From Minisyncoccota bacterium (GTDB lineage: Bacteria; Patescibacteriota; Minisyncoccia; Moranbacterales; UBA1568), in contig JBPPMJ010000006.1 in NCBI GenBank assembly GCA_051306005.1, positions 8,361 to 72,360 on the forward strand: a DNA stretch of 64,000 nt, read 5' to 3'. Positions 7,767-52,667 of the stretch are shown piece by piece (position 1 is the first letter of the stretch; every line of letters begins with the position of its first letter). A program made the position numbers and the translations under genes. The notes below the pieces were generated by a model. It saw only the letters and a list, made by a program, of their open reading frames with translations. It was not told the DNA's origin and did not search any database.

Positions 7767-8180
7767 GCGATAGACATGGTGATTTCTGAGAAAAGATTGC
7801 AAAGAAAGACGCGGTGACAGCTATCTTTCTTGTCGTGATTGCGAAAAAAGAAAGTAATGGGGGCAAGCACGTACCACGCAGTGCAGACGGGAAGATTGTT
7901 ATAATGATTGGGAATACAGAGGAAAGCGCTACTGATTTGGTTGATGGACGTATTGATACCTTCTGTATACGTATCAATTGGATATATCTGAAAAAAAGAG
8001 GATTGCGTGAAAATGTGGACAAAGTTGTGCGAATCATGATTCACAAAGTGTCCAAAAATAGATTAGTGGTGTTAGTGTGTATACTGAAAAATACACATTA
8101 AGATTTAGGTCAAAACCACCACTGCGACGTGCGGAGCGTGCGACACCATTTGGCTTTGAAAAAGCCGTTAAGTTCCATTC

Positions 8181-8266
8181 TGGTGCCGTGGAAAGGACTT
8201 GAACCTTCACAGGGTTTCCCCTACCAGCTCCTAAGGCTGGCGTGTCTACCATTCCACCACCACGGC
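8181..8266 (-). tRNA. tRNA-Leu(TAG), class II, CCA encoded
   Basis: Minus-strand read GCCGTGG...CCACGGC-A-CCA. Anticodon loop CTTAGGA. Long variable arm. T-arm GAAGG-TTCAAGT-CCTTT. Confidence 0.85.
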
Positions 8267-8610: not shown

Positions 8611-10113
8611 TTATTCTACCCAGTGACGTTTTTTGATTTGTTGATTGTCTTCGTTTTTTCGTTTCTCAATTTTTTCTTCTGCTTGAGCTTGGAGTATAGT
8701 GAGGTTACTTTCGTTCAAAACAATGGATCGTTTGAGGAGTATATCACGTGTGTTGCGTGTCGGATCCTCAATGACTTCTGCCAATAAGACGTTTAAGATG
8801 GCGCCAATTTTTGGTCCGGCAGGAATATGGAGCATCTGGAGTAAATCAGTTCCCTTGATAGCGAGCATTTTGACGGAGAGTGGATCATGAGATACTTTTT
8901 CAATCATGTATTCCAAATGGCGGAGTTTGTAGGGCTTCGCTTTTGGTACGCCCGATCCCAACCGATCACCGATACGTACCGCCATGAGATCATCCATATT
9001 TTCTAAACCAACACGCTTGATAAGGCGTCTGACTGAGGCTTCAGTCACTTCGCCAACATTGTAATAGAAGAGATGATTGTCAACAAGGAGCACCGTCTTT
9101 TGGATGATAGTTTTTGGATAATGAAGACGGGTCAACATCTTTTCAGCCATACGCGCGCCGACGTGGTCATGATTGTAAAATGTGGCATGAAGTCCTTCGC
9201 CACGTTTCGTTCGTGGCTTACCAACATCGTGTAGGAGACTAGCGAGACGCACTTCTAGTTTTGACGAAGGGCAGGTTGCAAGTGCCCGTAGATTATGTTC
9301 CCAGACCGTATAGATATGATGCAGATTTTGCGTCACCCCAATTCCTTCTTCCAATTCCGGTAACACAAAGGGTAGCAGATGTGTTTCCTGTAAGAGAGCT
9401 ATGCCTTCATTTGGACTGTCAGACAAGATAATTTTGGAAAGTTCATCACGGATTCTTTCTTGGGAAACAACTTTGAGATTGTGGGCAAGTTTTTTGATTG
9501 CTTGTAGTGTTGCTGGCTCAATAGACCATTGCGATGCAGTTTTTTGCGAGTGGCGTAATTCAGCAAAAAATCGAACAGCTCGCATCAAACGCAAAGCATC
9601 TTCACCAAAACGTTCTTCGGGAGTGCCAACGGCGCGAATCAGTTTATCTGTGATGTCTTGTTGTCCACTAAAGAGATCTATCAACTTCCATGAACCTGGC
9701 TTTTTGGCACCATAAGCAAGGGCATTTATGGTAAAGTCTCGGCGCGCCAGATCTTCTTCAAGGGAGAGTGTAAAGGAAATGTGGTCTGGTCGACGTAAGT
9801 CCGTGTACTCACTTTCTGTGCGATATGTGGTGACTTCAATGATATCGTATTCATGTGAAACGGGGGTCGTCGCCAGAAAGCGCGCTACTTTGACACCGAC
9901 AGTTCCAAAGATATTTTCATAAAAACTATCTGGAAAAAGCGCCATAATTTGTTCTGGAATGGCATTGGTCGTTATATCCCAGTCTTTTGGGGTGCGTTCG
10001 ATAATGAGATCACGCACACATCCACCTACCAAAAATGCCTCAAAACCAGCCTGAATAAGTGTGTTTACAACATGTTGTACCGGCAATGGAATAAGAGAGG
10101 TCATAGGTAACAA
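8611..10113 (-). CDS. cca: CCA-adding tRNA nucleotidyltransferase (polyA polymerase head plus HD domain)
   Basis: GGCVRD nucleotidyltransferase motif, RRDFTINA, and HD motif LLHDVGK. Confidence 0.85.
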   Translation of the reverse strand: MLPMTSLIPLPVQHVVNTLIQAGFEAFLVGGCVRDLIIERTPKDWDITTNAIPEQIMALFPDSFYENIFGTVGVKVARFLATTPVSHEYDIIEVTTYRTESEYTDLRRPDHISFTLSLEEDLARRDFTINALAYGAKKPGSWKLIDLFSGQQDITDKLIRAVGTPEERFGEDALRLMRAVRFFAELRHSQKTASQWSIEPATLQAIKKLAHNLKVVSQERIRDELSKIILSDSPNEGIALLQETHLLPFVLPELEEGIGVTQNLHHIYTVWEHNLRALATCPSSKLEVRLASLLHDVGKPRTKRGEGLHATFYNHDHVGARMAEKMLTRLHYPKTIIQKTVLLVDNHLFYYNVGEVTEASVRRLIKRVGLENMDDLMAVRIGDRLGSGVPKAKPYKLRHLEYMIEKVSHDPLSVKMLAIKGTDLLQMLHIPAGPKIGAILNVLLAEVIEDPTRNTRDILLKRSIVLNESNLTILQAQAEEKIEKRKNEDNQQIKKRHWVE

Positions 10114-14394: not shown

Positions 14395-14797
14395 TCGGAA
14401 GCAAAGACTGTGCGTGCATGGAAGGGGGTGGGGCAAACACGTACAGGTTTGTCTGCGTCTTAGCACAATCCACTTGAGTGAGTTGCCATAAAACTCTCTC
14501 CAAGTCACCGAACGAATACGCGTAAGCGCCGAAGCAACCGGCGCGATCCGCGCCAACTGGCGGAGAGCGAGCTGTGTGAAGGCGGTTGCGTGTATTTCGC
14601 GGTCGGTTGATTTATTGCATTCTTGGCTCTCAGGCAAAACTTGAGAACGACAACCGAGAAGTGAAGGTGAAGCGAGGACTCCGGACGCGATGTGAGATGG
14701 GGATGTGGCCGACATGCACTCCGACCGGATATCTCAATGTCACATCGCCGAATGGCAGAGGACAAATCATCGTCGATTCAGATCGCGGACTACCCCC
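14395..14797 (-). ncRNA. GC-rich structured RNA, candidate tmRNA (ssrA)-like; 3' boundary unresolved
   Basis: Minus strand starts GGGGGTAGTCCGCGATCTGAATCGACGATGATTTG, which resembles the tmRNA 5' TLD (E. coli GGGGCTGATTCTGGATTCGACGGGATTTG). Possible P2 pairing TTTGTC/GACAAA with the 3' region. GC well above the flanks. No canonical T-arm or tag frame found. Confidence 0.35.
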
Positions 14798-14838
14798 TAG
14801 ACAAATTGTTTCGTCCTGCCGATTCTGATTTCCAATTT

Positions 14839-14928
14839 TGGCGGAAAGGGAGGGATTCGAACCCTCGATACTGTTTCCAGTATGCCGCTTTTCGAGAGCG
14901 GTGCCTTCGACCACTCGGCCACCTTTCC
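14839..14928 (-). tRNA. tRNA-Ser(CGA), class II, CCA encoded
   Basis: GGAAAGG...CCTTTCC-G-CCA. Anticodon loop CTCGAAA. Long variable arm ACTG/CAGT. T-arm GAGGG-TTCGAAT-CCCTC. Confidence 0.85.
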
Positions 14929-35011: not shown

Positions 35012-35025
35012 TGGAGAAAAAGAAG

Positions 35026-35097
35026 CGGGTATCGTATAATGGTTATTATATCAGCCTTCCAAGCTGAGGATGACGGTTCGATTCCGTTTACCCGCTC
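35026..35097 (+). tRNA. tRNA-Gly(TCC), CCA not encoded
   Basis: GCGGGTA...TACCCGC-T. Anticodon loop CTTCCAA. T-arm GACGG-TTCGATT-CCGTT. Confidence 0.85.
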
Positions 35098-35472
35098 AAA
35101 AATAGTGTGTTCTCTATACCCGGATGTGGATGTTTTTTACCGCCTTTGCAGGGAATGCCACTTATCTATCAGCAGTGTAGCGAAGGCGAAGCGAGAGAGA
35201 TGTTCAATTCTGTCGGACGATCGCGCTCATGGTTCTACATACTGAAAAATATAAACAGGTTATCTTTTATCTCTGCGCCAGGTTAAGCAAAGAGATGTGA
35301 GGAAAGAAGAAACGGCTGAAAGAGTAGTAGATATTTTCTAGTTGATGGGACGGTGGTATTATCACTGACTGAAAGATACGCATTGGATAGCTTTGTGAGG
35401 GGACTATTTTTTGTTTTAAAGAAAAAATGGTATACTGAAAGGTACTTTATAAATTATGATGCGGGAACGTTT

Positions 35473-43031: not shown

Positions 43032-43194
43032 AGTGTATCAGGTAATAAGTGGTTTGAAAAGTCATTGAAATTGCGCTACAATGATTGTGTTAAAATAATG
43101 ATGGGTGATTGTATAGCTGATAAAGGACAACATTATAGAAGCATCAGTCTGAGACGATATAAGTATGATTGCGCCATCGCGTATAAGTGAGACA

Positions 43195-43268
43195 GTGGGT
43201 GTAGTACAATGGTAGTACACGACCTTCCCAAGGTTGAGACGAGGGTTCGATTCCCTTCACCCGCTCCA
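43195..43268 (+). tRNA. tRNA-Gly(CCC), CCA encoded
   Basis: GTGGGTG...CACCCGC-T-CCA. Anticodon loop TTCCCAA. T-arm GAGGG-TTCGATT-CCCTT. Confidence 0.8.
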
Positions 43269-43276
43269 TAATGTGT

Positions 43277-43502
43277 CTATACCGTACCGCTCGAACCTAT
43301 TTTGTCCGCAACGGCTGAATGAAACCATACTAAGGAAGTCAGCTCCGCCACTGCGACCCGCCCAAGCGGGATCGCCACCTCCCAGAAAAACTGCCTTTGC
43401 ATTCCGGATTTTGCGCGCGCCCGATTTTTTCTTTCAAAAAGGAAAAGTCAGTTTTTCTGGGCTGTTCTGCTCTTTGGTGCAGAGCGGCGGGGCTGTTTGC
43501 TG
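43277..43502. repeat. left copy of ~226-bp GC-rich imperfect inverted repeat with internal nested stems
   Basis: About 88% identical to the reverse complement of 50271-50497. Internal stems cccagaaaaactg/cagtttttctggg and cagcYccgcc/ggcggggctg. Confidence 0.75.
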
Positions 43503-43566
43503 TTTTTTACCTTACCACAATATCTAAACTTTAGATATTTGCTTTCTGTATATATGCTGATACTAT

Positions 43567-43788
43567 ATGGACAAGACAATACGAACAAAAGAATACGCTC
43601 GATTTATTGAGAAACTGCGTAAGGCACGGCTTGAGGCAGGATTGAGGCAAATTGATGTTGCCAAGAAAATCAAGCGCCCACAATCTTATATTTCCCGCGT
43701 GGAATCTGGGGAATATCGGTTGGATATTTTGGAAGTCAAGCGGTTCGCCAAGATTTACGGAAAGAGCGTGGATTATTTCGTGAAGTAA
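43567..43788 (+). CDS. XRE-family HTH transcriptional regulator
   Basis: ARFIEKLRKARLEAGLRQIDVAKKIKRPQSYISRVESGE is a Cro/C1 HTH. First gene of the island. Confidence 0.7.
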   Translation: MDKTIRTKEYARFIEKLRKARLEAGLRQIDVAKKIKRPQSYISRVESGEYRLDILEVKRFAKIYGKSVDYFVK

Positions 43789-43793
43789 ACCAT

Positions 43794-44486
43794 ATGAAAA
43801 AATGTTCATTTTGCGCGGAAGAAATTCAAGATGGCGCAGTTAAGTGTAAGCATTGTGGAGAATTTTTAACATATGCAACAAAAACAGAAGAGAATCATGT
43901 TTCAGTAAAAAATGATAATGTAAAAAAGTTTAGAAAAATTTCAATAAACGTCGCAAAATTTGTTCTGCGAGTAACGTTGTTTCTTGTTTTTATAGCCTCT
44001 ATTTTTATAGTCAGTCTTCTTCCAATTGGAGGATATGGTCTTTTGGATAGAGCTACAGCTTTTTTACTGATATCGGTGCCATGGAGCTTGCTGTTGGTGA
44101 TTGAATATTTCAGCATAAGAAAAAAACCTGTAGAAGAAGATTACAAAGGATTGAAAGGAATTGGTGGTTGGTTGGTGTTACCAATCATTGGTATGTTGGT
44201 ATCTGCTGCTACGGTAGTTGAAGGCGCTACTTTGATTGAAGGTGCTTCGCTACTGCTAAAGATTGTTGTTATACTATTTTTTGCGCTCTGGATTGTCTTA
44301 TTGGTCGCTTTCTTCTCTAAAAAGAGGGTAACTCCCGTTCTATTTATTTGTTTTTTGTTTCTAAACTTGTTCATTGAATTACTTGGTTTGCAGGAGGGAG
44401 GCTTTGTTACGGCATCTATACCATTGGTAATATGGTCTATTTATTTTATAAGATCAAAAAGAGTGAGGCTTACATTTATTGAGTGA
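43794..44486 (+). CDS. zinc-ribbon (CxxC...CxxC) polytopic membrane protein
   Basis: CSFCAEE...CKHCGE N-terminal ribbon then about 5 TMs. Start 6 nt after the XRE stop. Confidence 0.55.
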   Translation: MKKCSFCAEEIQDGAVKCKHCGEFLTYATKTEENHVSVKNDNVKKFRKISINVAKFVLRVTLFLVFIASIFIVSLLPIGGYGLLDRATAFLLISVPWSLLLVIEYFSIRKKPVEEDYKGLKGIGGWLVLPIIGMLVSAATVVEGATLIEGASLLLKIVVILFFALWIVLLVAFFSKKRVTPVLFICFLFLNLFIELLGLQEGGFVTASIPLVIWSIYFIRSKRVRLTFIE

Positions 44487-44762
44487 ACAAAAAAATGGTC
44501 AGACTGTTAATTTCTTAGTGAAAAAAGTATGAATATCGTGAAGAAAAAAAGAACATTGATTTGCGATGAAGCTGAGAAAAAGTGGCAGCAAGCGGGACCA
44601 AAGACTAGGATAGTCAGGTTTTTTTGGAATGGGGTTGCATTCAAATCTACCCTTACTCTTTGCAGGGTGCTTGTTGAAAGCGTAGATGGGAGAATAAAGG
44701 TTTGTCGATATCATCGCTGATAAGGTTTTTATTATCTTCTTTGGGTCTAATACCTCGTGGCT

Positions 44763-44805
44763 TGCGAAGATTTACGGAAAGAGCGTGGATTATTTTGTGA
44801 AGTGA
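44763..44805 (+). repeat. 43-bp direct repeat duplicating the 3' end of the XRE gene (43746-43788)
   Basis: 40/43 identical (tgcgaagatttacggaaagagcgtggattattttgtgaagtga). Not part of an intact ORF. Confidence 0.65.
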
Positions 44806-44827
44806 TAGCTTTAAGAAGAATAATTTT

Positions 44828-45316
44828 ATGAAAGAAACGAAAAGCTGGTTACGTTGGATTGCTGTACTTCCTGGGGCTTTAATTTTTGGCATTCTTGCTA
44901 CCTTCCCTTTGCATTGGCTAATCTATTTGGCATTTGCTCATGATGGCGCTACTGTATTTGGGATTGTGGAACTTAACGATGATGATTGGAGATATATTGA
45001 ATATTATCTCTACCCGTTTGTGATTGCGGTTACTTTCATTTATGCAGGTTATAGGATTGCGCCAAAACATAAGTTAAAAACAGCCGTCGCTCTTTTTGTA
45101 ATATACTTCACCGTGTGGCTGATTGCCAGTTATATTTCTCTATCCAAGGGCGATATTTACGGGTCATATTTACACTTCTCAGGAAGAACTATCTTCGCAT
45201 TGATAGGCGCTATTCTTGGAATATATATTGTAAAAAAGATTGACTCGAACGTGACGAGAGGCATTTCCGTAGAGAATTCCCAGGAGCAACACGATGAGAA
45301 TTCTACAGAAAATTAG
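44828..45316 (+). CDS. hypothetical 4-TM membrane protein
   Basis: 162-aa ORF with four hydrophobic segments and an acidic tail. Confidence 0.45.
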   Translation: MKETKSWLRWIAVLPGALIFGILATFPLHWLIYLAFAHDGATVFGIVELNDDDWRYIEYYLYPFVIAVTFIYAGYRIAPKHKLKTAVALFVIYFTVWLIASYISLSKGDIYGSYLHFSGRTIFALIGAILGIYIVKKIDSNVTRGISVENSQEQHDENSTEN

Positions 45317-45352
45317 GAAGGATATTGGTCAGAAATAGAAGAGATATTTGAT

Positions 45353-45820
45353 ATGAATAATGACTTAAGTTCTGAAAATAAAACAGAAGAACAAATAGAA
45401 ATCAATCCAAAAAGGACAGGGAATTTCTGGGAGTATTCGAAAACTATGGATCGAGAAGAAGCTTTGGATGTCTATAATATGTGGTTGTTGCATGTTAGAT
45501 ATTATCACCCTAAATTAGATGTTTTATTTCAAGGTGTGAGTATTCCTACATTTTTTCTTCCTGTTCCAATGGAATTATTGCAAGAAGTACCTAAAATATT
45601 AAAAAAATGCAAAAACGAAGATGGAACTTATGAAAACGAAGAATCTATAGAGAATAACATCGGGAAATATGCACATAGATATTATCCAAGAACTGGAAAT
45701 GACGAAGAAATTATCGATGGGATGGGTAGTGCTATAAACAGCAGACATTCTTTTGAGTTAATGCTTTCAAAGATTAAAAAGAATAAAGATGATTGGTATT
45801 TTGAATACAAAGAAATTTAG
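45353..45820 (+). CDS. hypothetical acidic protein
   Basis: 155 aa. Stop codon abuts the ATG of the next ORF (TAGATG). Confidence 0.45.
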   Translation: MNNDLSSENKTEEQIEINPKRTGNFWEYSKTMDREEALDVYNMWLLHVRYYHPKLDVLFQGVSIPTFFLPVPMELLQEVPKILKKCKNEDGTYENEESIENNIGKYAHRYYPRTGNDEEIIDGMGSAINSRHSFELMLSKIKKNKDDWYFEYKEI

Positions 45821-46141
45821 ATGAAACCAAACAATAAAAACATTTTAACAATTATAACCACAGCTTTTCTTGTTGTAGCTTTATCTGACGGATTGCCTTA
45901 CGGATATTTTACTTTATTGCGATTTATTGTATGTATAGTTGGTGTTTATCTTGCATACAAAATATATGAGGACAATAAAAAATCATTGCTGGTTTGGGTT
46001 TTTGGTTTTATAGCTATTTTGTTTAATCCAATTATTGTTATTCAGTTACAACGAGAGCAATGGTGGGTTATTGATCTCGTTGTTGGAATATTTTTTGTTT
46101 TATCAATTTTTCTAGTTAAGACAAAAATACGTAATGATTAA
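45821..46141 (+). CDS. hypothetical small 3-TM membrane protein
   Basis: 106 aa. Translationally coupled to the upstream ORF. Confidence 0.45.
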   Translation: MKPNNKNILTIITTAFLVVALSDGLPYGYFTLLRFIVCIVGVYLAYKIYEDNKKSLLVWVFGFIAILFNPIIVIQLQREQWWVIDLVVGIFFVLSIFLVKTKIRND

Positions 46142-46175
46142 ATTTTGTGAAGTAAATTAGTAAAATAGTAGGATT

Positions 46176-46703
46176 ATGTTTACATTGATTGCTGTTGTAT
46201 TAGCTGGAGTACTGTACTTTTTTGATCAAAATACAGGTGCGCTTTTAGTAGTTGTTGGAGTTGTTGCGAAGAACCTCGCTCCATTTATTTGTCTTTTGGT
46301 GAGCGCTCCTGGATTTTTTGTAATATTTCCTGACGATTCTAATAAGCGTAGCATGGCTAGATTCATTGTCGGTATAATAATCGCAACGTTTTTACAGGCG
46401 ATTTTATGGTTTTTTTATGTAGTATTTGTAATTAATCTAGTCTTGTCAGTAGGCACGGATGGAAATGTAGCTTTTTTAATCTGGGGTCTTACATTTTTTA
46501 CTATAAGTATTCCATTTTACTTTACTACACGTGAAATCAGAGAACATGCGGAGACAACGGGGCGTGCTGCTGATAACATGGAAGATGCTACGTTTATGAA
46601 ATCATATACAACGGATGATATGAAAAAAATAGAAACGAATCTTTGGTTTGTAAGGATATCATTTTTATTAGCAATTATTCTGGCAGGATTTTATTATCTA
46701 TAA
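46176..46703 (+). CDS. hypothetical polytopic membrane protein
   Basis: 175 aa with about 4 TMs. Confidence 0.45.
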   Translation: MFTLIAVVLAGVLYFFDQNTGALLVVVGVVAKNLAPFICLLVSAPGFFVIFPDDSNKRSMARFIVGIIIATFLQAILWFFYVVFVINLVLSVGTDGNVAFLIWGLTFFTISIPFYFTTREIREHAETTGRAADNMEDATFMKSYTTDDMKKIETNLWFVRISFLLAIILAGFYYL

Positions 46704-46925
46704 TGAATCCAAGCTCTTTTAATTAAGAAAATGTGCCAAATATCGATAACGTATTGAAATCGTCTACAATAATCGGAGTTTTATTAGTGGTACTTTCCTT
46801 TGCTTATTACTTTATAGTAAGACCTATATCTAAAGATGCATCTTTAGATAGTTGTCTTAAAAATGTTAAATGGGCATCCCAGAAAGATGAATGTTATAAG
46901 AGGTACTAATTTCTAGAGTCGAAAA

Positions 46926-47453
46926 ATGGGTCAGGTAAAATATCAAATCCAGTCCGATTTCATGGTGTTATGTGTATATATGGATGAATCAGATCAAATT
47001 AAAGAAGTTTATGCCAGGTTTGGTTTGGCAGTATATTCCGCCCAAGTACTTGAACTCCAAATGATTAATATGATTGTTGCATTAACATTGCCGGAAAGGT
47101 TTCAGATTAAACGAGATACCATTGACAATCTTTTTGATAAGCTTTTTGAAAAAACAATGGGAGGGTTAATGCAAGATTTCAAAAAAAGATTTGAATTAAC
47201 TGAAAAAGAAAATTTGTTATTAGATAAAAGTTTAGAGCAGAGAAACAGATTAGCTCATAGATATTTTCGAGAAAAGGCTGTGGATTTCATGAGTTTTGAA
47301 GGTAGATTAAAAATGATAGATGAGCTTATCATAATCAATGCTCACTTTGAAGAGTTGGATAAGATATTGACATACAGACACAGAGAATATACCAAAAAAT
47401 TTGGAGTTACTGAGGATGTCATAGAAGAAGAAATTAAAAAATTGTTATTATGA
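46926..47453 (+). CDS. hypothetical protein with HEPN-like Rx4H motif
   Basis: LEQRNRLAHRYF (R106-x4-H111) in an alpha-helical, K/E-rich 175-aa protein. Confidence 0.4.
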   Translation: MGQVKYQIQSDFMVLCVYMDESDQIKEVYARFGLAVYSAQVLELQMINMIVALTLPERFQIKRDTIDNLFDKLFEKTMGGLMQDFKKRFELTEKENLLLDKSLEQRNRLAHRYFREKAVDFMSFEGRLKMIDELIIINAHFEELDKILTYRHREYTKKFGVTEDVIEEEIKKLLL

Positions 47454-47644
47454 CTCAGCCCTCTCTATTTGCCCATTCCCGATATTTCCAAGAAATCCCA
47501 GAGCGGCTTGATTTCTCAAAGTTCTAGAGCGATTGTACTATTAACTAGCCATCCTCATCGGAGAAATGGAGAATAAAAATTACGAAGTTTGTTGTTCCCA
47601 AGGCGATAGCAGCCTATTCTGATTGCTATTAAGAAATTTATCTT

Positions 47645-48142
47645 TTGAAAATATATATGGAAAAACAACAAGGTAAAACTTTTTTTAAAGAGAGTTTGAA
47701 TTGGAGCGCTGATCATTTATTCTATATCTTTATTATCGGGGTCATAGGATTTTTACTAATATCTCACATATGGGGGAAAAAAGATCCCGAGGCTTTATTT
47801 GAGGCAACAACCCCATACAAGGCAGATTCGCGGTATTTTATCTATTTATTCCCGGATAGTAATTCGCCAAAAAATTATAGGCTTTCAGCCGATATTCTTA
47901 TAGGAGAGGGACCTGATCGTAACGATATTCAAGTAGAAGATATTTATCTTGAGGATGGGCGTGGCATATATTTTGGATGTGCCGTTCAGCTTAAAACTGA
48001 GAATTTCTGCAAGGATCAAGATGGGAAAGAGTGGATGATTGTTTTGAGTGATTGGGAAAAAGCGAAAACGATAAAAGAGATTCAAGATTCAAAGAAAGAG
48101 GTAGATGATATTGTTAATAGCATAATGAATGAAATTAATTAA
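47645..48142 (+). CDS. hypothetical protein with N-terminal TM
   Basis: 165-aa ORF. LFYIFIIGVIGFLLISHIW. Confidence 0.4.
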   Translation: MKIYMEKQQGKTFFKESLNWSADHLFYIFIIGVIGFLLISHIWGKKDPEALFEATTPYKADSRYFIYLFPDSNSPKNYRLSADILIGEGPDRNDIQVEDIYLEDGRGIYFGCAVQLKTENFCKDQDGKEWMIVLSDWEKAKTIKEIQDSKKEVDDIVNSIMNEIN

Positions 48143-48177
48143 TCACCACCCCAATTTTTCTTTTTGAGAAGAATGGT

Positions 48178-49053
48178 ATGTTTGAAAGAAGTTTGCTCAT
48201 ATTGATTTTGATCTTACAGGCCATATTCTCTGGCTTAGTTTTTGCTGGCAATGAGAGCTCTTTTAACTGGGAATCCCTGTTTTCTTTTTTGCAAATAGCT
48301 GTTGTTGTCTTGGGTTTTTTTTGGGGGTATTATCTCTTAAAGAAAGAAATCTCCTTCAAAAAGAAGTTGGAAATCCATGCGAAACTGACCAATATGCTTG
48401 TCAAAGGATTGCATGAATCTTTCTATTGGTTGGCTCCTTTTTTAATGAATCGCTTTTTTCTAGAAAAAAGTAATCTGAAAGATGGGAATGATTATTCAAC
48501 AAAAAGTCTTAGGGACAACAGTAAGGAGCTTGGTAAAAAAATAAGTGATTTTCAATCCGATTTTCTGAGATTTTACGAATTCTTCCAACTTTGGAAAGTC
48601 ATATTTTCTGAAAAGCTAGATAGGGAATCAAAATTTCTTTTGGATCTGGAAAATATTTTTTGTGAAGAACTTCGCACATATCAAGGGAAACTAATGGATT
48701 ATTCTATGCTGAGTCTTATGAAAGATGAAGCAACCATAGAGAAGGAAAGAAAAGAACTTTTAGACTTGGAAGAAAAGATTTCCAGGAAGAGGACTGCGTT
48801 AGCTAATGGTCTTGACAAATTTGTTTCAGATATGAGTAGAGAAGTTTTTAGTGGGCTATTTGATCGAAAGAAAAGTGTAGAAAGAGGATTGTTTGATCCA
48901 GAATTAGAAAATGCAAACAACGGCGATTCAGCGGTGATTTTGACGGACAAAGGGTTTGTTCGTCAGTCTTACCAGAAGACTGCTTTTCAAAAAGAATTTG
49001 GTGGTTTTAAAGAAAGACAACGAACGCTGAGAGAATTCTTGGAAAAAAATTAA
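48178..49053 (+). CDS. hypothetical membrane-anchored coiled-coil protein
   Basis: 291 aa. Two N-terminal TMs then K/E-rich helical region. Confidence 0.45.
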   Translation: MFERSLLILILILQAIFSGLVFAGNESSFNWESLFSFLQIAVVVLGFFWGYYLLKKEISFKKKLEIHAKLTNMLVKGLHESFYWLAPFLMNRFFLEKSNLKDGNDYSTKSLRDNSKELGKKISDFQSDFLRFYEFFQLWKVIFSEKLDRESKFLLDLENIFCEELRTYQGKLMDYSMLSLMKDEATIEKERKELLDLEEKISRKRTALANGLDKFVSDMSREVFSGLFDRKKSVERGLFDPELENANNGDSAVILTDKGFVRQSYQKTAFQKEFGGFKERQRTLREFLEKN

Positions 49054-49117
49054 CAATAACGAGCGTATTGGTTTGTATAAAACTTTCTTATTGTTTAGCT
49101 GAGTAAAAAGCTATATA

Positions 49118-50005
49118 ATGTCATTAATGGAACAAGAAACTCTCACAATAAAATTTGATGGCCAGAACCATCAGGTGGATGTTCAGACTTTTGTGTACTC
49201 CGTGCTCAATTTTACGACGGTCGTAAAGGAAGCGAATAAGAGAAACGGAGGGAACCCGATAAATATAAATATTAAGGCACCTGAAAAAGGGAGTCTTCTT
49301 GTCGATCTTGTAACGAACGCTGTCAATAACCCGACCCTGCTGAATGGCACGACTATTTTAGCGAGTACGATAGTTATCGTTGGCGGAGTTTATCAACTTC
49401 ACAAATTTATAAGTGGGAGAAAGACTAAAGAAGTAAAGACTGAAAATAGTGAAACTACTATTACGCTTGAAGACGGCTCAATTCTTACTATTGCGGAGAA
49501 TATTTACAATATCTACACGACAACTCCGGCTATACCGGATAGTATTTCTAAAAACTTTTCCGCTTTAAGCGAGGATCCAGCGGTAACAAACTTTGAAGTT
49601 TCTAGGAATGGAACAGAAAAAATTATTGAAGTATCAAAAGAGGATTATGCAAGAATGGCTATTAAGCAGCAGATCGAGACAGAAAATTCAAGAACTATTG
49701 TTGAGTCTGCAAACCTCTACATTTACAAGGTAGTTTTCGAAAAAACCGATCGAAAGTGGGAATTCTATCATAACGGTGATAAAATTTCTGCCAATATCTT
49801 TGATGAAGATTTCTTCAAGCTGATTGATAGAGGAGAGTCTTTTTCAAAGGGGGATCAACTAAAAGCTGATCTTCAAGTCACCCAGATTTTTGATGAATCC
49901 ATTGGTACCTATGTGAATCAATCCCATGCTGTTTTGAAAGTCTACGAGCATATTAAACGGTCAGAACCGATGGAATTGCCTTTTAATAAAACTATTGAGG
50001 ATTAA
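49118..50005 (+). CDS. hypothetical protein
   Basis: 295-aa ORF. Last gene of the island. Followed by hairpin cccgcga-ttcctttct-tcgcggg. Confidence 0.45.
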   Translation: MSLMEQETLTIKFDGQNHQVDVQTFVYSVLNFTTVVKEANKRNGGNPININIKAPEKGSLLVDLVTNAVNNPTLLNGTTILASTIVIVGGVYQLHKFISGRKTKEVKTENSETTITLEDGSILTIAENIYNIYTTTPAIPDSISKNFSALSEDPAVTNFEVSRNGTEKIIEVSKEDYARMAIKQQIETENSRTIVESANLYIYKVVFEKTDRKWEFYHNGDKISANIFDEDFFKLIDRGESFSKGDQLKADLQVTQIFDESIGTYVNQSHAVLKVYEHIKRSEPMELPFNKTIED

Positions 50006-50270
50006 GGGAGTCCCGCCCGCGATTCCTTTCTTCGCGGGCTGGGATGTGTGCGCACGGGTGGGTGGGGCAAGCACAACAAGATTTGCTTGTGCTTTAGCAC
50101 AAACCACTTGAAAGGAGTTACCACTAACCATACCGAAACGGTGAGCAACAGAGCTACTGCCAAACGTGGATATTGCGCCGACGCGAGGATGAAGAAATGA
50201 GTGAACAAAATATTGCCTGATGTGGTAAAATAATCATAAGCTCATTCTTTCAGCCTTCGCGACGGACTCA

Positions 50271-50497
50271 AAAGCAGACAGCCCCGCCGCTCTGCACCAA
50301 AGTGCAGAACATCCCAGAAAAACTGACTTTTCCTTTTTGAAAGAAAAAATCGGGCGTGCGCAAAATCCGAAATGCGAAGATAGTTTTTCTAGGATGGAGC
50401 GATCCCGCTTTAGCGGGTCGCAGCGGCGGGGCTGGCTCCCTTAGTATGGTTTCATTCAGCCGTTGCGGAGAAAATAGGTTTGAGCGGTACGGTAAAG
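50271..50497. repeat. right copy of ~226-bp inverted repeat (reverse complement of 43277-43502)
   Basis: See left copy. Internal stems conserved, with wobble-compatible substitutions. Confidence 0.75.
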
Positions 50498-50516
50498 TCA
50501 CTCATTAAACTCTCTT

Positions 50517-52667
50517 TTATAAGGTTTGGCTTTTTTTGTTTAGCCATTGGTTGAATGCGCTATTGAGATGTGCCATAGATGCTTTGACGAAGGTGACGGC
50601 ATAGTGTTCCGTGGGAGTGAAGGTATAGGTAGGAAAACGCATATCTGTCAGTGTAATGGTATCTGGAAGTGAGGCATGTGTGCCAGATGCAAGAAGAGTG
50701 CGTATCATCATTTCACGATTTTTCTGATGGACGTTTGAACTCATCGGTGAAAGGGGCGTTGTATGCGTTTGCGTGGACAATGGGATATCTGATGATGTAG
50801 CAGATGTATCGGTAGTCGGAAGAATGGTATCAATAGCTGGAGTTGGTTGTTCCAGATCCACATTCTCTATTGGCTCGACGGATTCTTCTGTGGTTGGATC
50901 AATATCGGTCACGACGTCGATAGAAGACATTTTTGTTGGTTCATTGATTGTTGTCCATATCCATCCACCCTCTTTCATTTTCTGATAAACGGCATTTTCT
51001 TTAATGGGTGTATCCGTTTTATATTTTATTTTTTGCAGAATTTCGCCATTCGGTGCACGTAGCTCTATTTTTCCTTTCTGATTGGGCAAACTGAAGTGAG
51101 CATGTTCACGGGTCAGTGTAAATTTTTGTTTGGGCTTGAGGATGATATCTTGATTAATCGGATGATTGATGAGTTTTTTCCATCCGGTTGTAATGCCAAA
51201 ACCGCGGAGATTAACTGCTTTTTTGTGACGATTTTCTAAGATGAGCCATTCGTTGTCTGTGTCTTTGCCGACAGGGTTGGCAACGAGTGCGATGATACGA
51301 ATTTTCGGAGGATCATAAGATTCTATTTTCACAGTGAAAGTTTCGAGAGTATCATCTTTACCATCAGTTGTTTTGAGTGTAACGTTATAGCGCCCGTTTT
51401 TTTCATAGGTATGTGTCGTATTTTTCAAATAACTCTTGTGTCCATCACCGAAATTCCAAGTATATTTGAGCGTATCGCGATCGACATCTTTACCACGCGC
51501 ATAAAATTGAAGAGCTATATTACTAAAACCTTTCTTTGGAATTTTTTCACGTGTTTCAGGCAGATTGTTGAGGCTATTTGGCGCGCCAGGAGTCGGTGTA
51601 CCGCCTCGCCATTCTGTTGCGGTATAGTTGAGCGACACATCATCTTTACTGGTAGCGTATTGCGCGGTATTGATGAGTATGTTCTGCGCATCGAAGAGTG
51701 ACAGTGTTTCTTTGGTGTTATTAAGGGCAAAGGTAAAGTCTGTGTCTGAAATGAGCAAATAGCCATTGGGTGTGATGAATGTCTTATTCGGAAAAACATA
51801 TTTACCCGATTTGGTGGCATCACGGATACTCCAGCCACTGATGTCTTGCTTTTTTTCTCCTGCGTTGAAAAGTTCAATAAATTCTCCCATGTCTTGTTTC
51901 GCTTTTGGATTAGGGAATATTTCATTGAAACGGATAGCGGACGGAGTCAAGGATGCGTTGTCGGCTATTGGTAGCGTACCGGGTAATGAAGGCGATGCTG
52001 AACAACGATTCTCCGTACTGGCAGTTGGAGTAGGCGTGAGAGCAAATTCTGGCAACCAATTGCCAGTAGAGGTATCACGTACTAGACTCGTACCTTCTTC
52101 CGGATTATTTTCAATCATTATCTGAGAAAAACTATTTTTAGGTAGAAAGCAGTCAGTAATCTTTGGAGGGACACAAACACCCCATGTGACACTGTCAATG
52201 AGCTTCTCCTTGTCATCAAAGATGGCAAGGCTGTTGTTGTTAGCTAATATCGGTGACACTTCATTTTTATTTTGGACGTCAAATAGAGAGATAAAAGAAG
52301 CCTTACCACCTTTGTTGGTCCATAGAAGAAATCCATGTGGCTCAATGGTGTCTGTTTTGTGAAACGGGTGTGGTGTATCACAATCAAGTGTTTCAAATTC
52401 ATGTAAAAGTGTGCCACGTGGTGTTTTGTCACCTTTAGTTTTTTTCCGTAACTGCCAATCAGAGATATTAATTGCATGATCGGTAGTGTTATAGAGTTCT
52501 ATAAAATCATCGTTTGTATCTTGACCAACGATTTGCACCTCGCTGATAATTACTGGCGGAAGGGTCTGGGCATGGACCGATGTTTGAGGGTGAGCAAGGA
52601 AAAGGGGACAGAGAATTATAGTATGGAAAACTATTTGTAGGGGTACATTGTTGATTTTAACGCGCAT
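50517..52667 (-). CDS. secreted protein with two lamin-tail (LTD) domains and a PKD domain
   Basis: Signal peptide. LTD-like IISEVQIVGQDTNDDFIELYNTTDHAINISDWQL and IRFNEIFPNPKAKQDMGEFIELFNAGEKKQDISGWSI. PKD motif YTWNFGDGHKSY...HTYEKNGRYNVTLK. Confidence 0.65.
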   Translation of the reverse strand: MRVKINNVPLQIVFHTIILCPLFLAHPQTSVHAQTLPPVIISEVQIVGQDTNDDFIELYNTTDHAINISDWQLRKKTKGDKTPRGTLLHEFETLDCDTPHPFHKTDTIEPHGFLLWTNKGGKASFISLFDVQNKNEVSPILANNNSLAIFDDKEKLIDSVTWGVCVPPKITDCFLPKNSFSQIMIENNPEEGTSLVRDTSTGNWLPEFALTPTPTASTENRCSASPSLPGTLPIADNASLTPSAIRFNEIFPNPKAKQDMGEFIELFNAGEKKQDISGWSIRDATKSGKYVFPNKTFITPNGYLLISDTDFTFALNNTKETLSLFDAQNILINTAQYATSKDDVSLNYTATEWRGGTPTPGAPNSLNNLPETREKIPKKGFSNIALQFYARGKDVDRDTLKYTWNFGDGHKSYLKNTTHTYEKNGRYNVTLKTTDGKDDTLETFTVKIESYDPPKIRIIALVANPVGKDTDNEWLILENRHKKAVNLRGFGITTGWKKLINHPINQDIILKPKQKFTLTREHAHFSLPNQKGKIELRAPNGEILQKIKYKTDTPIKENAVYQKMKEGGWIWTTINEPTKMSSIDVVTDIDPTTEESVEPIENVDLEQPTPAIDTILPTTDTSATSSDIPLSTQTHTTPLSPMSSNVHQKNREMMIRTLLASGTHASLPDTITLTDMRFPTYTFTPTEHYAVTFVKASMAHLNSAFNQWLNKKSQTL

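What the first reader, a model, noticed from the sequence alone, without database searches (positions are those of the whole stretch)
43277..43502. The 226-bp repeat units are themselves nested-stem structures with wobble-compatible divergence between copies
Within each copy, cccagaaaaactg pairs with cagtttttctggg 60 nt downstream. Further out, cagcYccgcc(r)ctg pairs with cagagcggcggggctg, enclosing about 130 nt. A local hairpin cccgc-NNNN-gcggg sits inside. Between the two copies (about 25 substitutions), several changes keep pairing through wobble (a T·G wobble in place of C:G in the aaaaactg stem and the ccgcc stem), and the tetraloop changes (CCAA versus TAAA) while its stem is kept. Two arbitrary six-frame ORFs over the repeats (43234-43527, 50268-50501) pick up mostly non-synonymous changes. 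This argues for selection on nucleic-acid structure (RNA, or cruciform DNA such as a recombination site) rather than on a protein.
Basis: seen in the sequence. Interest (0 to 1): 0.6.

Follow-up and report, generated by a model that had tools for sequence, protein, structure and literature searches.

The report
Structured end-repeats of a tRNA-linked recombinase island
The two 232-base repeats are inverted, hairpin-rich end modules of a mobile gene island next to a tRNA gene, and the same module sits beside a conserved serine recombinase in many candidate-phyla-radiation (CPR) bacteria, an arrangement I could not find described.

Summary
The two copies (43273-43504 +, 50270-50501 -) are 90% identical inverted repeats. 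Their 3' ends point inward, around a 6.7-kb AT-rich cargo that starts right after tRNA-Gly(CCC).

I call the unit E. Each copy folds into the nested stems described. In 13 copies from three subfamilies, 12 base pairs keep pairing through changes on both sides (0 of 500 shuffles reach this).

E has two parts:
- A ~65-nt 5' module, conserved in every lineage examined.
- A lineage-variable, G+C-rich hairpin domain ending in a T-run.

In every CPR locus examined where the sequence reaches that far, the layout is: flank | E> cargo <E | <tail LSR> tail> | <tRNA. LSR is a large serine recombinase, and "tail" is a 135-137-nt inverted repeat of its own 3' end. The window has the same layout minus the tail-LSR-tail unit. 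E begins exactly at the recombinase junction.

Best reading: E is the island's boundary module, a recombinase junction arm plus a terminator or insulator hairpin domain. A functional RNA, or a DNA-level role in recombination, is not excluded. No Rfam family matches, and no conserved reading frame exists.

The parts
43195..43268 (+). tRNA-Gly(CCC). Its 3' CCA end abuts copy A of the element.
   Evidence: ARAGORN and Rfam tRNA, 64.4 bits. In L022/L023 the LSR module sits at the 3' end of a tRNA with the same anticodon.
43269..43338 (+). E copy A, 5' module (TAATG-TGTCTATACCGTACCGCTCGAACCTATTTTGTCC...CTAAGGAAG). It is conserved in all lineages. It begins where the LSR tail or the tRNA is joined in other genomes.
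   Evidence: Alignment of 18 copies. An nhmmer profile of this module finds it only at E positions. Junction table.
43340..43495 (+). E copy A, structured 3' domain. P1 is 43340-43354 with 43479-43495. It encloses the P3 hairpin (43355-43373), the long stem P2 (43381-43393 with 43449-43461), the P5 hairpin (43423-43449), an invariant loop TTGCGCGCGCC (43411-43421) and the P6 hairpin (43466-43483).
   Evidence: Folds, coordinates, compensatory changes.
43496..43508 (+). T-run (TTTGCTGTTTTTT) following the closing stem P1. A T-run is present after P1 in all three subfamilies.
   Evidence: Alignment A3, columns 313-326. The terminator-like scan hit covers 43482-43498 plus the T tail.
43520..43538 (.). 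Perfect palindrome ATATCTAAAcTTTAGATAT between E and the first cargo gene. Likely the operator of the XRE regulator. It shows the cargo has its own control region.
   Evidence: Read from the sequence. A related palindrome lies at 46818-46859.
43567..50005 (+). Cargo: an AT-rich block (28-41% GC against 40-45% in the flanks) of small + strand ORFs. The first is an XRE helix-turn-helix regulator (43567-43788). Membrane and zinc-ribbon proteins follow. No recombinase.
   Evidence: ORFs, Pfam, composition, tblastn with LSRs.
49996..50269 (-). Conserved non-coding spacer between the cargo and copy B. It is shared with L007 (about 79-84% identity), although L007 positions 1-1425 gave no match to the window.
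   Evidence: blastn, alignment and six-frame translation.
50264..50507 (-). E copy B, reverse strand. 5' module 50436-50507; P1 50420-50434 with 50279-50295; P2 50381-50393 with 50313-50325; P3 50401-50419; P5 50325-50351; P6 50291-50308. It lies 10-16 nt downstream of the stop codon of the LTD/PKD gene (50517-52667, - strand).
   Evidence: Flanking gene.
14586..14828 (+). Decayed fragment of the same LSR family (matches aa ~115-187), 10 nt from the 3' end of tRNA-Ser(CGA) at 14839-14928 (- strand). This is the same LSR> | <tRNA geometry as in intact loci.
   Evidence: tblastn with 8 LSRs, E = 3e-5 to 5e-4. ORF translation, sequence.

Best explanation
The 232-nt unit (E) is the boundary module of a tRNA-linked genomic island. 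The island belongs to a mobile-element family of CPR/Patescibacteria built around a large serine recombinase (LSR).

Full layout, shown: flank | E> cargo <E | <tail LSR> tail> | <tRNA. The window carries tRNA-Gly(CCC)> | E> XRE-cargo <E | flank. That is the same island without the tail-LSR-tail unit.

E has two parts.
1. A ~65-nt 5' module that starts immediately after the 5-nt overlap TGG(A/T)G, the complement of the tRNA's NNCCA end. It contains a T-loop-like GCTCGAAC. I infer that this is the arm the recombinase recognises and joins.
2. A G+C-rich hairpin domain closed by a long stem and followed by a T-run. I infer that it acts as a transcription stop or insulator. It would stop read-through from the tRNA, the LSR gene or the flanking gene into the cargo, and possibly read-through in the other direction.

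The nested stems are kept by compensatory substitutions, and new palindromes are tolerated only at hairpin tips.

Shown: the architecture, the junctions, horizontal spread and stem compensation. Inferred: recombinase binding, termination, and how the tail-LSR-tail unit was lost from the window.
For: Architecture:
- Six independent loci show the full layout: L008, L009 (L010-L016 are the same organism), L017 (no tail repeat detected), L019, L020, L022. L021 and L026 show it except for the distal E, which lies beyond the contig end.
- In these loci an E pair, 88-100% identical, flanks variable cargo. L017 is the exception: its distal copy is only a 72-nt, 82% remnant.
- A 135-137-nt tail repeat, 96-100% identical (77% in L026), flanks the LSR gene.
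- The outer tail end abuts the 3' end of a tRNA: Arg, Leu, Gly or Lys.

Junctions: in 7 loci both tail arms end in the same TGG(T/A)G or CGGAG. The next base starts either E or the reverse-complemented tRNA. E's TCGAAC lies 4-5 nt further out than the tRNA T-loop.

Association: the 5' module is conserved in all lineages and occurs nowhere else in the held DNA. The module and the tail end change together with the LSR clade.

Window: rc(L009) reads tRNA> | <tail <LSR tail> | E> XRE> cargo <E. The window reads tRNA-Gly> | E> XRE> cargo <E.

Mobility: E copies 83-95% identical occur in unrelated metagenomes, while the host's ThrRS has no relative above 72%. The LSR family is 70-88% identical across Parcubacteria classes.

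Structure: 92.4% of cells are paired. 12 pairs changed on both sides (0 of 500 shuffles; slid controls 0-2). 8 of the 15 pairs of stem P2 are compensatory. The three subfamilies fold independently into the same architecture.

Terminator-like features: a T-run follows P1 in all subfamilies. In the simple-hairpin lineages the E hairpins score as canonical terminators, for example L022 9566-9596, a 14-bp G+C stem followed by ATTGTTTTTC.

Insertions sit at hairpin tips: a 20-nt palindrome in L006, and 29 and 62 nt in L009.
Against: - No recombinase lies in or next to the window's island, so any recombinase role is historical or acts in trans.
- The window junction reads CCA-TAATG-TGTCTA. It lacks the TGGAG overlap seen at occupied sites, so it is not a pristine empty site.
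- Dyad symmetry between the tail end and the E 5' module, which might be expected for a serine-integrase site, was not above shuffles.
- A 150-nt multi-branch domain with an invariant loop (TTGCGCGCGCC) is far more elaborate than the simple terminators elsewhere in this genome. This hints at an extra function.
- The simple terminator scan finds only a weak local hairpin at the 3' end.
- There are no transcript data.
- All LSR loci were reached through one LSR that was itself found via E, so sampling is not independent of the association.
Confidence: 0.5

Rival explanations
1. E encodes a functional structured RNA of about 170-240 nt. It would be made as a 3' extension of the tRNA, the LSR mRNA or the flanking gene, and would end at its own P1 stem plus U-run. 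The RNA would regulate or assist the element, for example by controlling LSR or cargo expression or by acting as a recombinase cofactor.
For: - Compensatory changes in P1, P2 and P6, together with an invariant unpaired loop TTGCGCGCGCC.
- Three U.G pairs in P4 and P5 are invariant in 10-11 sequences. They would be C.A mismatches on the other strand.
- A T-run follows the closing stem in all subfamilies.
- Insertions occur only at hairpin tips, like the expansion segments of RNAs.
- In every context E lies just downstream of a transcribed gene in the same orientation.
Against: - The structured domain is not conserved across the LSR family. L008, L019, L020 and L022 carry unrelated simple hairpins behind the same 5' module.
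- At variable stem positions A.C cells (21) outnumber G.U cells (12).
- P2 is a perfect 13-21-bp Watson-Crick duplex in every subfamily, so it is equally good on both strands and as DNA.
- No promoter-like site was found for E next to the LSR.
- No Rfam match.
- No expression data.
Confidence: 0.2
2. The stems act at the DNA level. They would extrude as a cruciform or fold in single-stranded DNA, and serve as an architectural or accessory element for recombination, synapsis or inversion. This would be analogous to structured integron attC sites or to accessory sites of resolvases.
For: - E abuts the recombinase junction.
- P2 is strand-symmetric and perfectly Watson-Crick.
- G.U and A.C intermediates are about equally frequent.
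- Hairpin-rich sequence also occurs in the LSR tail on the other side of the junction, for example GGCGGCGC-TTT-GCGCCGCC.
- E pairs and tail pairs are homogenised within a locus, 88-100% and 96-100% identical.
- L001 and L006 show the LSR body in opposite orientations relative to tail+E.
Against: - Large serine recombinases are known to act on about 40-50 bp of duplex DNA without accessory structures. This is from general knowledge and was not tested here.
- The domain starts about 70 nt from the junction.
- The domain's sequence and architecture differ between lineages whose LSRs are 73-88% identical.
- The conserved U.G pairs in P5 would be C.A mismatches on the other DNA strand.
Confidence: 0.15
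3. The hairpin domain has no function of its own. It would be an accretion of G+C-rich palindromes that insert into, or grow at, existing hairpins in an AT-rich genome. Arm-to-arm correction would keep the arms complementary, and the domain would be carried along passively with the recombinase arm.
For: - Palindromic insertions nest inside hairpin loops: CCTGCCTGCCGGCAGGCAGG in L006, and a palindrome within a palindrome in the distal L009 copy compared with the proximal one.
- Domain content turns over quickly between lineages.
- Similar G-tract loop motifs recur in different hairpins: GGGGTGTGGGG, GGGGGTGAGGGGG, and CCCCCCACACCCCCC (the complement of such a G-tract).
Against: - The same multi-branch architecture and the invariant loop persist across three subfamilies that differ at about 30-40% of positions.
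- Substitutions between the window copies are depleted in paired columns: 8 of 27, although 51% of columns are paired.
- No such palindrome family occurs elsewhere in the 64-kb window.
Confidence: 0.1

Closest known systems
Integrative elements driven by large serine recombinases (serine integrases such as phiC31 and Bxb1; TnpX of Tn4451; Ccr of SCCmec)
   Same: - The partner gene has the Resolvase + Recombinase + Zn_ribbon_recom architecture.
- It aligns over aa 17-472 with phage serine integrases.
- Junctions are sharp, with a short shared overlap.
- The element sits at one specific kind of target.
   Different: - Only about 26% identical to phage integrases.
- The target is the 3' end of many different tRNA genes, a habit typical of tyrosine integrases (general knowledge).
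- The gene is flanked by a 135-137-nt, nearly perfect inverted repeat of its own 3' end.
- The cargo is flanked by a second inverted repeat, E.
- The window's island has no recombinase at all.
Tycheposons of Prochlorococcus (Hackl et al., bioRxiv 10.1101/2020.12.28.424599; known to me from the abstract listed and from memory)
   Same: tRNA-linked islands with highly variable cargo in streamlined genomes that lack classic transfer machinery. They also leave recombinase-less cargo remnants next to tRNAs.
   Different: As I recall, tycheposons mostly use tyrosine recombinases and are bounded by direct repeats of tRNA fragments. Long structured inverted repeats are not a described feature.
Serine-invertase systems with long inverted repeats (the phage P1 C segment with Cin; Mu G with Gin; Salmonella Hin). 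From general knowledge.
   Same: A serine recombinase gene lies next to, or inside, a segment bounded by inverted repeats, with the junctions at the repeat ends. Two orientations of the LSR body relative to tail+E are seen in nature (L001 against L006).
   Different: - The enzyme is a large integrase-type recombinase, not a ~190-aa invertase.
- No cargo was seen in both orientations.
- Inverting either segment would not change any reading frame in an obvious way.
Intrinsic terminators and insulators at the borders of mobile elements
   Same: G+C-rich stems followed by a T-run, just inside the element ends and just downstream of the tRNA whose own terminator the insertion displaced.
   Different: In the window-type E the closing stem encloses about 125 nt with three inner hairpins and an invariant loop. 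Canonical terminators are single short hairpins.
Integron attC sites
   Same: Recombination-associated elements whose secondary structure is conserved while the sequence varies.
   Different: attC sites are 57-141 nt, lie in direct orientation one per cassette, and are recombined as folded single strands by a tyrosine integrase (general knowledge). None of that was found here.

Membership tests
Element driven by a large serine recombinase (LSR) | Encodes a recombinase with an N-terminal resolvase catalytic domain, a recombinase domain and a zinc ribbon | tested here: not met
   Not met for the window's island: tblastn with 9 LSRs finds nothing between 43269 and 50507. Met in the homologous loci L006, L008, L009 and L017-L026, which carry PF00239 + PF07508 + PF13408. 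The window holds only a decayed LSR fragment, at 14586-14828.
Element driven by a large serine recombinase (LSR) | Sharp, site-specific junctions that share a short core with the target | tested here: met
   In 7 loci both tail arms end in the same 5 nt, TGG(T/A)G or CGGAG. This is the complement of the tRNA 3' end. E or the tRNA follows immediately.
Element driven by a large serine recombinase (LSR) | Attachment sites with imperfect dyad symmetry around the crossover | tested here: inconclusive
   Local alignment of rc(tail end) against the E 5' module scores within the shuffle distribution in 8 loci. A TCGAAC motif is shared by E and the tRNA arm at a 4-5-nt offset.
Element driven by a large serine recombinase (LSR) | Catalysed integration and excision at these sites | not testable with these tools
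   Needs an in vitro or in vivo recombination assay, or reads spanning excised circles.
Known RNA family (Rfam 15) | Covariance-model match at or above the gathering score | tested here: not met
   No match at the gathering threshold in the window. At E <= 10 in 43150-43650, only chance-level hits besides the tRNA. Nothing over E in 7 related loci.
Intrinsic (Rho-independent) terminator | A G+C-rich stem immediately followed by a T-run | tested here: met
   P1 is followed by TTTGCTGTTTTTT in copy A and CTGCTTTTGA in copy B, with T-runs in L009, L017 and L026. Scan hits at 43482-43498 and 50290-50278.
Intrinsic (Rho-independent) terminator | A single short hairpin (stem about 5-14 bp, loop 3-8 nt) | tested here: not met
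   In the window-type E the closing stem encloses about 125 nt with three inner hairpins. The simple-hairpin E types (L019, L020, L022) do meet this.
MITE / insertion-sequence terminal inverted repeats | Terminal inverted repeats, plus a target-site duplication and a DDE transposase (or derivation from one) | tested here: not met
   Inverted ends are present. The flanks (...CTCCA| and |TCATTAAA...) show no direct duplication. No transposase lies in the cargo.
Invertible segment controlled by a serine recombinase | The same segment found in both orientations between fixed flanks | tested here: inconclusive
   The LSR body is inverted relative to tail+E in L001, compared with L006. These come from different samples, and L006 could instead have E on both sides. 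Among the 8 P0005 places shown (L009-L016), those that include the cargo show it in one orientation.
tRNA-like or tmRNA gene | A cloverleaf or tRNA-like domain detectable by ARAGORN or Rfam | tested here: not met
   ARAGORN finds nothing in E on either strand. The reverse complement of the 5' module has TTCGAG and a ...CTCCA end, but 20 nt (not 16) separate the loop from the end, and there is no T-stem (read from the sequence).
Protein-coding gene | A reading frame conserved in register among homologues | tested here: not met
Indels of 1, 4, 13, 16, 20 and 62 nt shift the frame between subfamilies.

The most novel reading that the evidence does not exclude
E and the LSR tail together form a previously undescribed, CPR-wide mobile platform. 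A tRNA-targeting large serine recombinase is bracketed by two nested pairs of inverted sites (tail/tail and E/E). This would let it flip its own gene and swap or flip whole cargo blocks, a natural counterpart of recombinase-mediated cassette exchange. The structured part of E, as RNA or as folded DNA, would be an active component of that reaction or of its control, rather than a passive terminator.
Probability: 0.15. Interest if true: 0.8.

Novelty: new variant of a known kind. Interest (0 to 1): 0.55.

Why it matters
CPR/Patescibacteria are a large, mostly uncultured part of bacterial diversity (general knowledge). As far as I know, little is known about how they exchange genes, and they have few genetic tools.

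This finding points to one recombinase family that is 70-88% identical across several Parcubacteria classes. The window host's ThrRS, by contrast, has no relative above 72%. The family sits at the ends of many different tRNA genes and always lies next to a recognisable boundary module that brackets highly variable cargo.

If the inferred sites are right, two things follow:
- They define candidate attachment sites for an integrase that works in these organisms.
- They give a simple sequence signature for finding accessory-gene islands in CPR metagenomes: a tRNA 3' end followed by the E 5' module. This would also find islands such as the window's that have lost the recombinase.

The structured domain is a well-supported new conserved nucleic-acid structure with no Rfam counterpart.

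Tried and rejected
- **Known RNA family.** Rfam at the gathering threshold on the window, a permissive scan of 43150-43650, and 7 related loci: nothing over E.
- **Protein-coding.** Rejected because of frameshifting indels and stop codons in homologues.
- **tRNA-like or tmRNA gene on either strand.** ARAGORN is negative. The 5' module only mimics a T-loop and a CCA end.
- **MITE or IS ends.** No target duplication and no transposase.
- **More copies inside the window.** blastn, nhmmer and a 5'-module profile find only the two.
- **Phage or plasmid origin.** Two exact-pattern scans of viral contigs found nothing. There is no plasmid match. The LSR is only ~26% identical to phage integrases.
- **Dyad symmetry of tail end against the E arm.** Not above shuffles, so I do not claim a palindromic site.
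- **Strand test by G.U against A.C.** 44 against 21 cells overall, but 32 of the G.U cells are three invariant pairs. At variable sites the count is 12 against 21, so there is no decision.
- **Promoter for E next to the LSR.** None found by the consensus scan.
- **Looking for an island-free version of the same host locus.** An exact-protein look-up of the neighbouring DUF4012 gene found no record.
- **Literature.** Four searches found no description of this recombinase/tRNA/inverted-repeat arrangement in CPR.
- **L002.** The second genome hit was a chance 21-mer match.

Full report
**What is in the window.** The two repeat units are inverted copies: 43273-43504 on the + strand and 50270-50501 on the - strand. 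They span 232 nt, are 90% complementary, and lie 6765 nt apart (alignment). I call the unit E.

- Both copies point inward with their 3' ends.
- Copy A starts directly after the CCA end of tRNA-Gly(CCC) at 43195-43268.
- Copy B lies 10-16 nt past the stop codon of an LTD/PKD-domain gene on the - strand.
- Between them is an AT-rich block (28-41% GC against 40-45% outside) of small + strand ORFs.
- The first ORF is an XRE helix-turn-helix regulator. A perfect 19-nt palindrome (43520-43538) precedes it, so the cargo has its own control region.
- No recombinase or transposase is present.
- The host is an NCBI MAG labelled Minisyncoccota, a CPR/Patescibacteria phylum. Its ThrRS has no relative above 72% identity in the protein collection.

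- As RNA, the copies fold to -85.7 and -101.6 kcal/mol, with z-scores of -4.1 and -7.0.
- The fold is a closing stem P1 around a small hairpin P3, a long A/T-rich stem P2 that contains P4 and P5, and a hairpin P6. A T-run follows P1.
- The two copies differ at 27 of 238 positions. Only 8 differences fall in the 122 paired columns.
- Of those 8, four switch between Watson-Crick and G.U. The other four are a mismatch in copy A against a pair in copy B.
- This is suggestive, but not decisive on its own.

**More copies.** Exact-pattern scans found homologues that are 83-95% identical.

- L001 is a small contig binned to a 'Rhizobiaceae' MAG, probably misbinned. L003-L007 come from JGI metagenomes.
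- Contigs often end inside or at E, as expected for a repeated element.
- A non-coding element this similar across samples indicates horizontal spread, given that the host's housekeeping proteins have no close relatives.

**The recombinase link.** In L006 a 538-aa large serine recombinase (LSR) runs straight into E.

- L001 equals rc(L006 1-1455) followed by L006 1445-1830. The LSR body is therefore inverted relative to its last ~140 nt (the 'tail') plus E.
- The LSR belongs to a very large Parcubacteria-wide family. Hundreds of clusters are 70-88% identical, with the Resolvase + Recombinase + Zn-ribbon architecture.
- It is only ~26% identical to phage serine integrases, and is alignable over aa 17-472. 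The tail therefore lies beyond the canonical fold.
- I fetched 19 contigs for 11 family members. Self-comparison and tRNA scans gave one recurring layout:

  flank | E> cargo <E | <tail LSR> tail> | <tRNA

- The tail repeat is 135-137 nt and 96-100% identical within a locus (77% in L026).
- The E pair is 88-100% identical within a locus (L017 keeps only a 72-nt, 82% remnant of the distal copy).
- The abutted tRNA varies: Arg-GCG, Arg-CCT, Leu-CAA, Gly-TCC, Gly-CCC, Lys-TTT.
- The cargo is different in every lineage. Examples: a Vut_1 transporter plus a methyltransferase; XRE plus VKOR; Mrr, PIN and a protease; surface proteins.
- Read on the other strand, L009 is tRNA> | <tail <LSR tail> | E> XRE> cargo <E. 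The window is tRNA-Gly> | E> XRE> cargo <E. That is the same island without the tail-LSR-tail unit.
- The window genome also keeps a decayed LSR fragment (14586-14828) next to tRNA-Ser(CGA). A possible tail remnant (8108-8185) lies next to tRNA-Leu(TAG).

**Junctions.** In seven loci both tail arms end in the same five bases, TGG(T/A)G or CGGAG. This is the complement of the tRNA's last bases.

- The next base begins either the reverse-complemented tRNA or E (alignment).
- E therefore starts exactly at the recombinase junction.
- Its first ~65 nt read T(G/A)T(C/A)T(T/A)TAC...GCTCGAAC.TA.TTTATC..AAA. They are conserved in all lineages.
- A profile of this module finds it nowhere else in the held sequence.
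- The module and the tail end change together with the LSR clade.
- The module contains a T-loop-like TCGAAC, 4-5 nt further from the junction than the real T-loop in the tRNA arm.
- From memory, serine-integrase attP and attB half-sites differ by about 5 bp in the spacing of one recognition motif. I offer this only as a lead.
- A direct test for dyad symmetry between the tail end and the E module was not significant.

**The structured domain.** Behind the conserved 5' module the content varies by lineage.

- There are one or two simple G+C hairpins in L008, L019, L020 and L022. Several of these score as canonical terminators.
- The nested multi-stem domain occurs in the window, L009, L017 and L026 types.
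- For the latter I aligned 13 copies from three subfamilies. Each subfamily folds on its own into the same P1/P2/P6 architecture.
- Using the structure derived from copy B, 92.4% of cells are paired. 12 pairs show changes on both sides, which 0 of 500 shuffles reach. Slid controls give 0-2.
- P2 is the clearest case, with three different sequences that each pair perfectly:
  - CCCAGAAAAACUG / CAGUUUUUCUGGG (window)
  - CCCAGCAAAAAAGUUUUCU / AGAAAACUUUUUUGCUGGG (L017)
  - CACCACAGAAAAAUACUCUUU / AAAGAGUAUUUUUCUGUGGUG (L026)
- The loop TTGCGCGCGCC is essentially invariant. The only change is G to A in window copy B.
- Insertions (20, 29 and 62 nt, all palindromic) sit at hairpin tips.
- A T-run follows P1 in all subfamilies.
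- So the secondary structure is under constraint.

**RNA or DNA.** This remains open.

- G.U cells outnumber A.C cells 44 to 21. However, 32 of the G.U cells are three invariant pairs.
- At variable positions the count is 12 G.U against 21 A.C.

**Interpretation.** The best-supported reading is that E is the island's boundary module. Its 5' part would be the arm joined by the recombinase. Its 3' part would be a transcription stop or insulator. Such a stop is needed because the element sits directly on a tRNA 3' end and next to convergent genes.

- The steps 'LSR binds here', 'transcription stops here' and 'the window lost the LSR unit' are inferences.
- The elaborate, conserved architecture and the invariant loop leave room for a functional RNA or a DNA-level role in recombination. 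I give both as rivals.
- L006 can be read in two ways. It is either an inversion isomer of the LSR body, or an LSR unit that has E rather than a tRNA on its right side.

**Comparison and novelty.** The system works like a serine-integrase island.

- It differs from described ones in four ways: the tRNA-end target, the inverted repeat of the recombinase's own 3' end, the second inverted pair around the cargo, and the structured boundary module.
- Four full-text searches found no description of it. Tycheposons are the nearest concept.
- I rate it a new variant of a known kind.
- The specific finding, a structured repeat, is real. It is explained in outline but not in mechanism.

Noticed in passing
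window 14586-14828 (+), next to tRNA-Ser(CGA) at 14839-14928 (-): A decayed fragment of the same LSR family (matches aa ~115-187, 28-36% identity) sits 10 nt from a tRNA 3' end. It is preceded by ...CTGATTTCCAATTT-TGGCG, which resembles the tail end. This looks like a scar of an LSR unit at a second tRNA in the same genome.
   Followed up: partly
window 8108-8185 (+), next to tRNA-Leu(TAG) at 8181-8266 (-): Weak similarity to LSR tails (P0014 aa 491-523, 44% identity, E = 0.01), ending in ...CCATTC-TGGTG at the tRNA 3' end. Possibly a third scar. The evidence is thin.
   Followed up: partly
window 50045-50111 and 14409-14477; L007 about 1475-1545; L017 1425-1474: A conserved non-coding motif, TGTGTGCGCACGGGTGGGTGGGGCAAGCACAA.AAGATTTGCTTGTGCTTTAGCACAAACC, occurs in four places: in the spacer inside copy B, upstream of the LSR scar, and in two other contigs. 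One of those sites is far from any LSR. Function unknown.
   Followed up: partly
window 43520-43538 and 46818-46859: Two related palindromes (ATATCTAAAcTTTAGATAT, and TAAGACCTATATCTAAAGATGCATCTTTAGATAG...). They are likely operators for the island's XRE regulator, one upstream of the XRE gene and one inside the cargo.
   Followed up: no
window 43742-43786 and 44759-44803: A 45-nt direct repeat (91% identical) corresponding to the 3' end of the XRE gene (...FAKIYGKSVDYFVK). The second copy has no matching ORF of 50 aa or more. It is probably a degraded second XRE gene.
   Followed up: no
window 35229-35312, downstream of tRNA-Gly(TCC) at 35025-35097: An 84-nt match (87% identical) to the start of a cargo gene of L005 (1682-1765). 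It lies in non-coding DNA just after another tRNA that carries an LSR unit in L017 and L020. Possibly a remnant of another island.
   Followed up: partly
L022 5810-5932 (+): An Rfam LOOT RNA (RF03000, 73.6 bits against a gathering score of 46.4) lies about 60 nt inside the distal E copy, within the cargo.
   Followed up: no
L019 about 9860-10000, L020 about 9850-10000, L021 about 220-370, L022 about 9850-10000: In the more distant LSR clades the gene is preceded by a strong promoter-like TTGCTTTT...TGGTATAAT and a ~110-130-nt leader with long complementary segments (for example GTTGCGACAAACAGACC...GGGTTTGTCGCAC and GGCCGTC...GGGCGGCC). This may be a regulatory 5' leader.
   Followed up: no
L024 3512-4954; L006 2162-3157: A diversity-generating retroelement pair (bAvd + reverse transcriptase) lies downstream of the LSR in L024. 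An IS30-family transposase is inserted just after E in L006.
   Followed up: no
L026 2124-2267: The LSR tail abuts a truncated tRNA-Arg(GCG) copy, which is followed 4 nt later by a full tRNA-Arg(GCG). L019 has a degenerate tRNA-like sequence (GAATAGAACC) at the same place. These are partial tRNA duplications at the junction.
   Followed up: no
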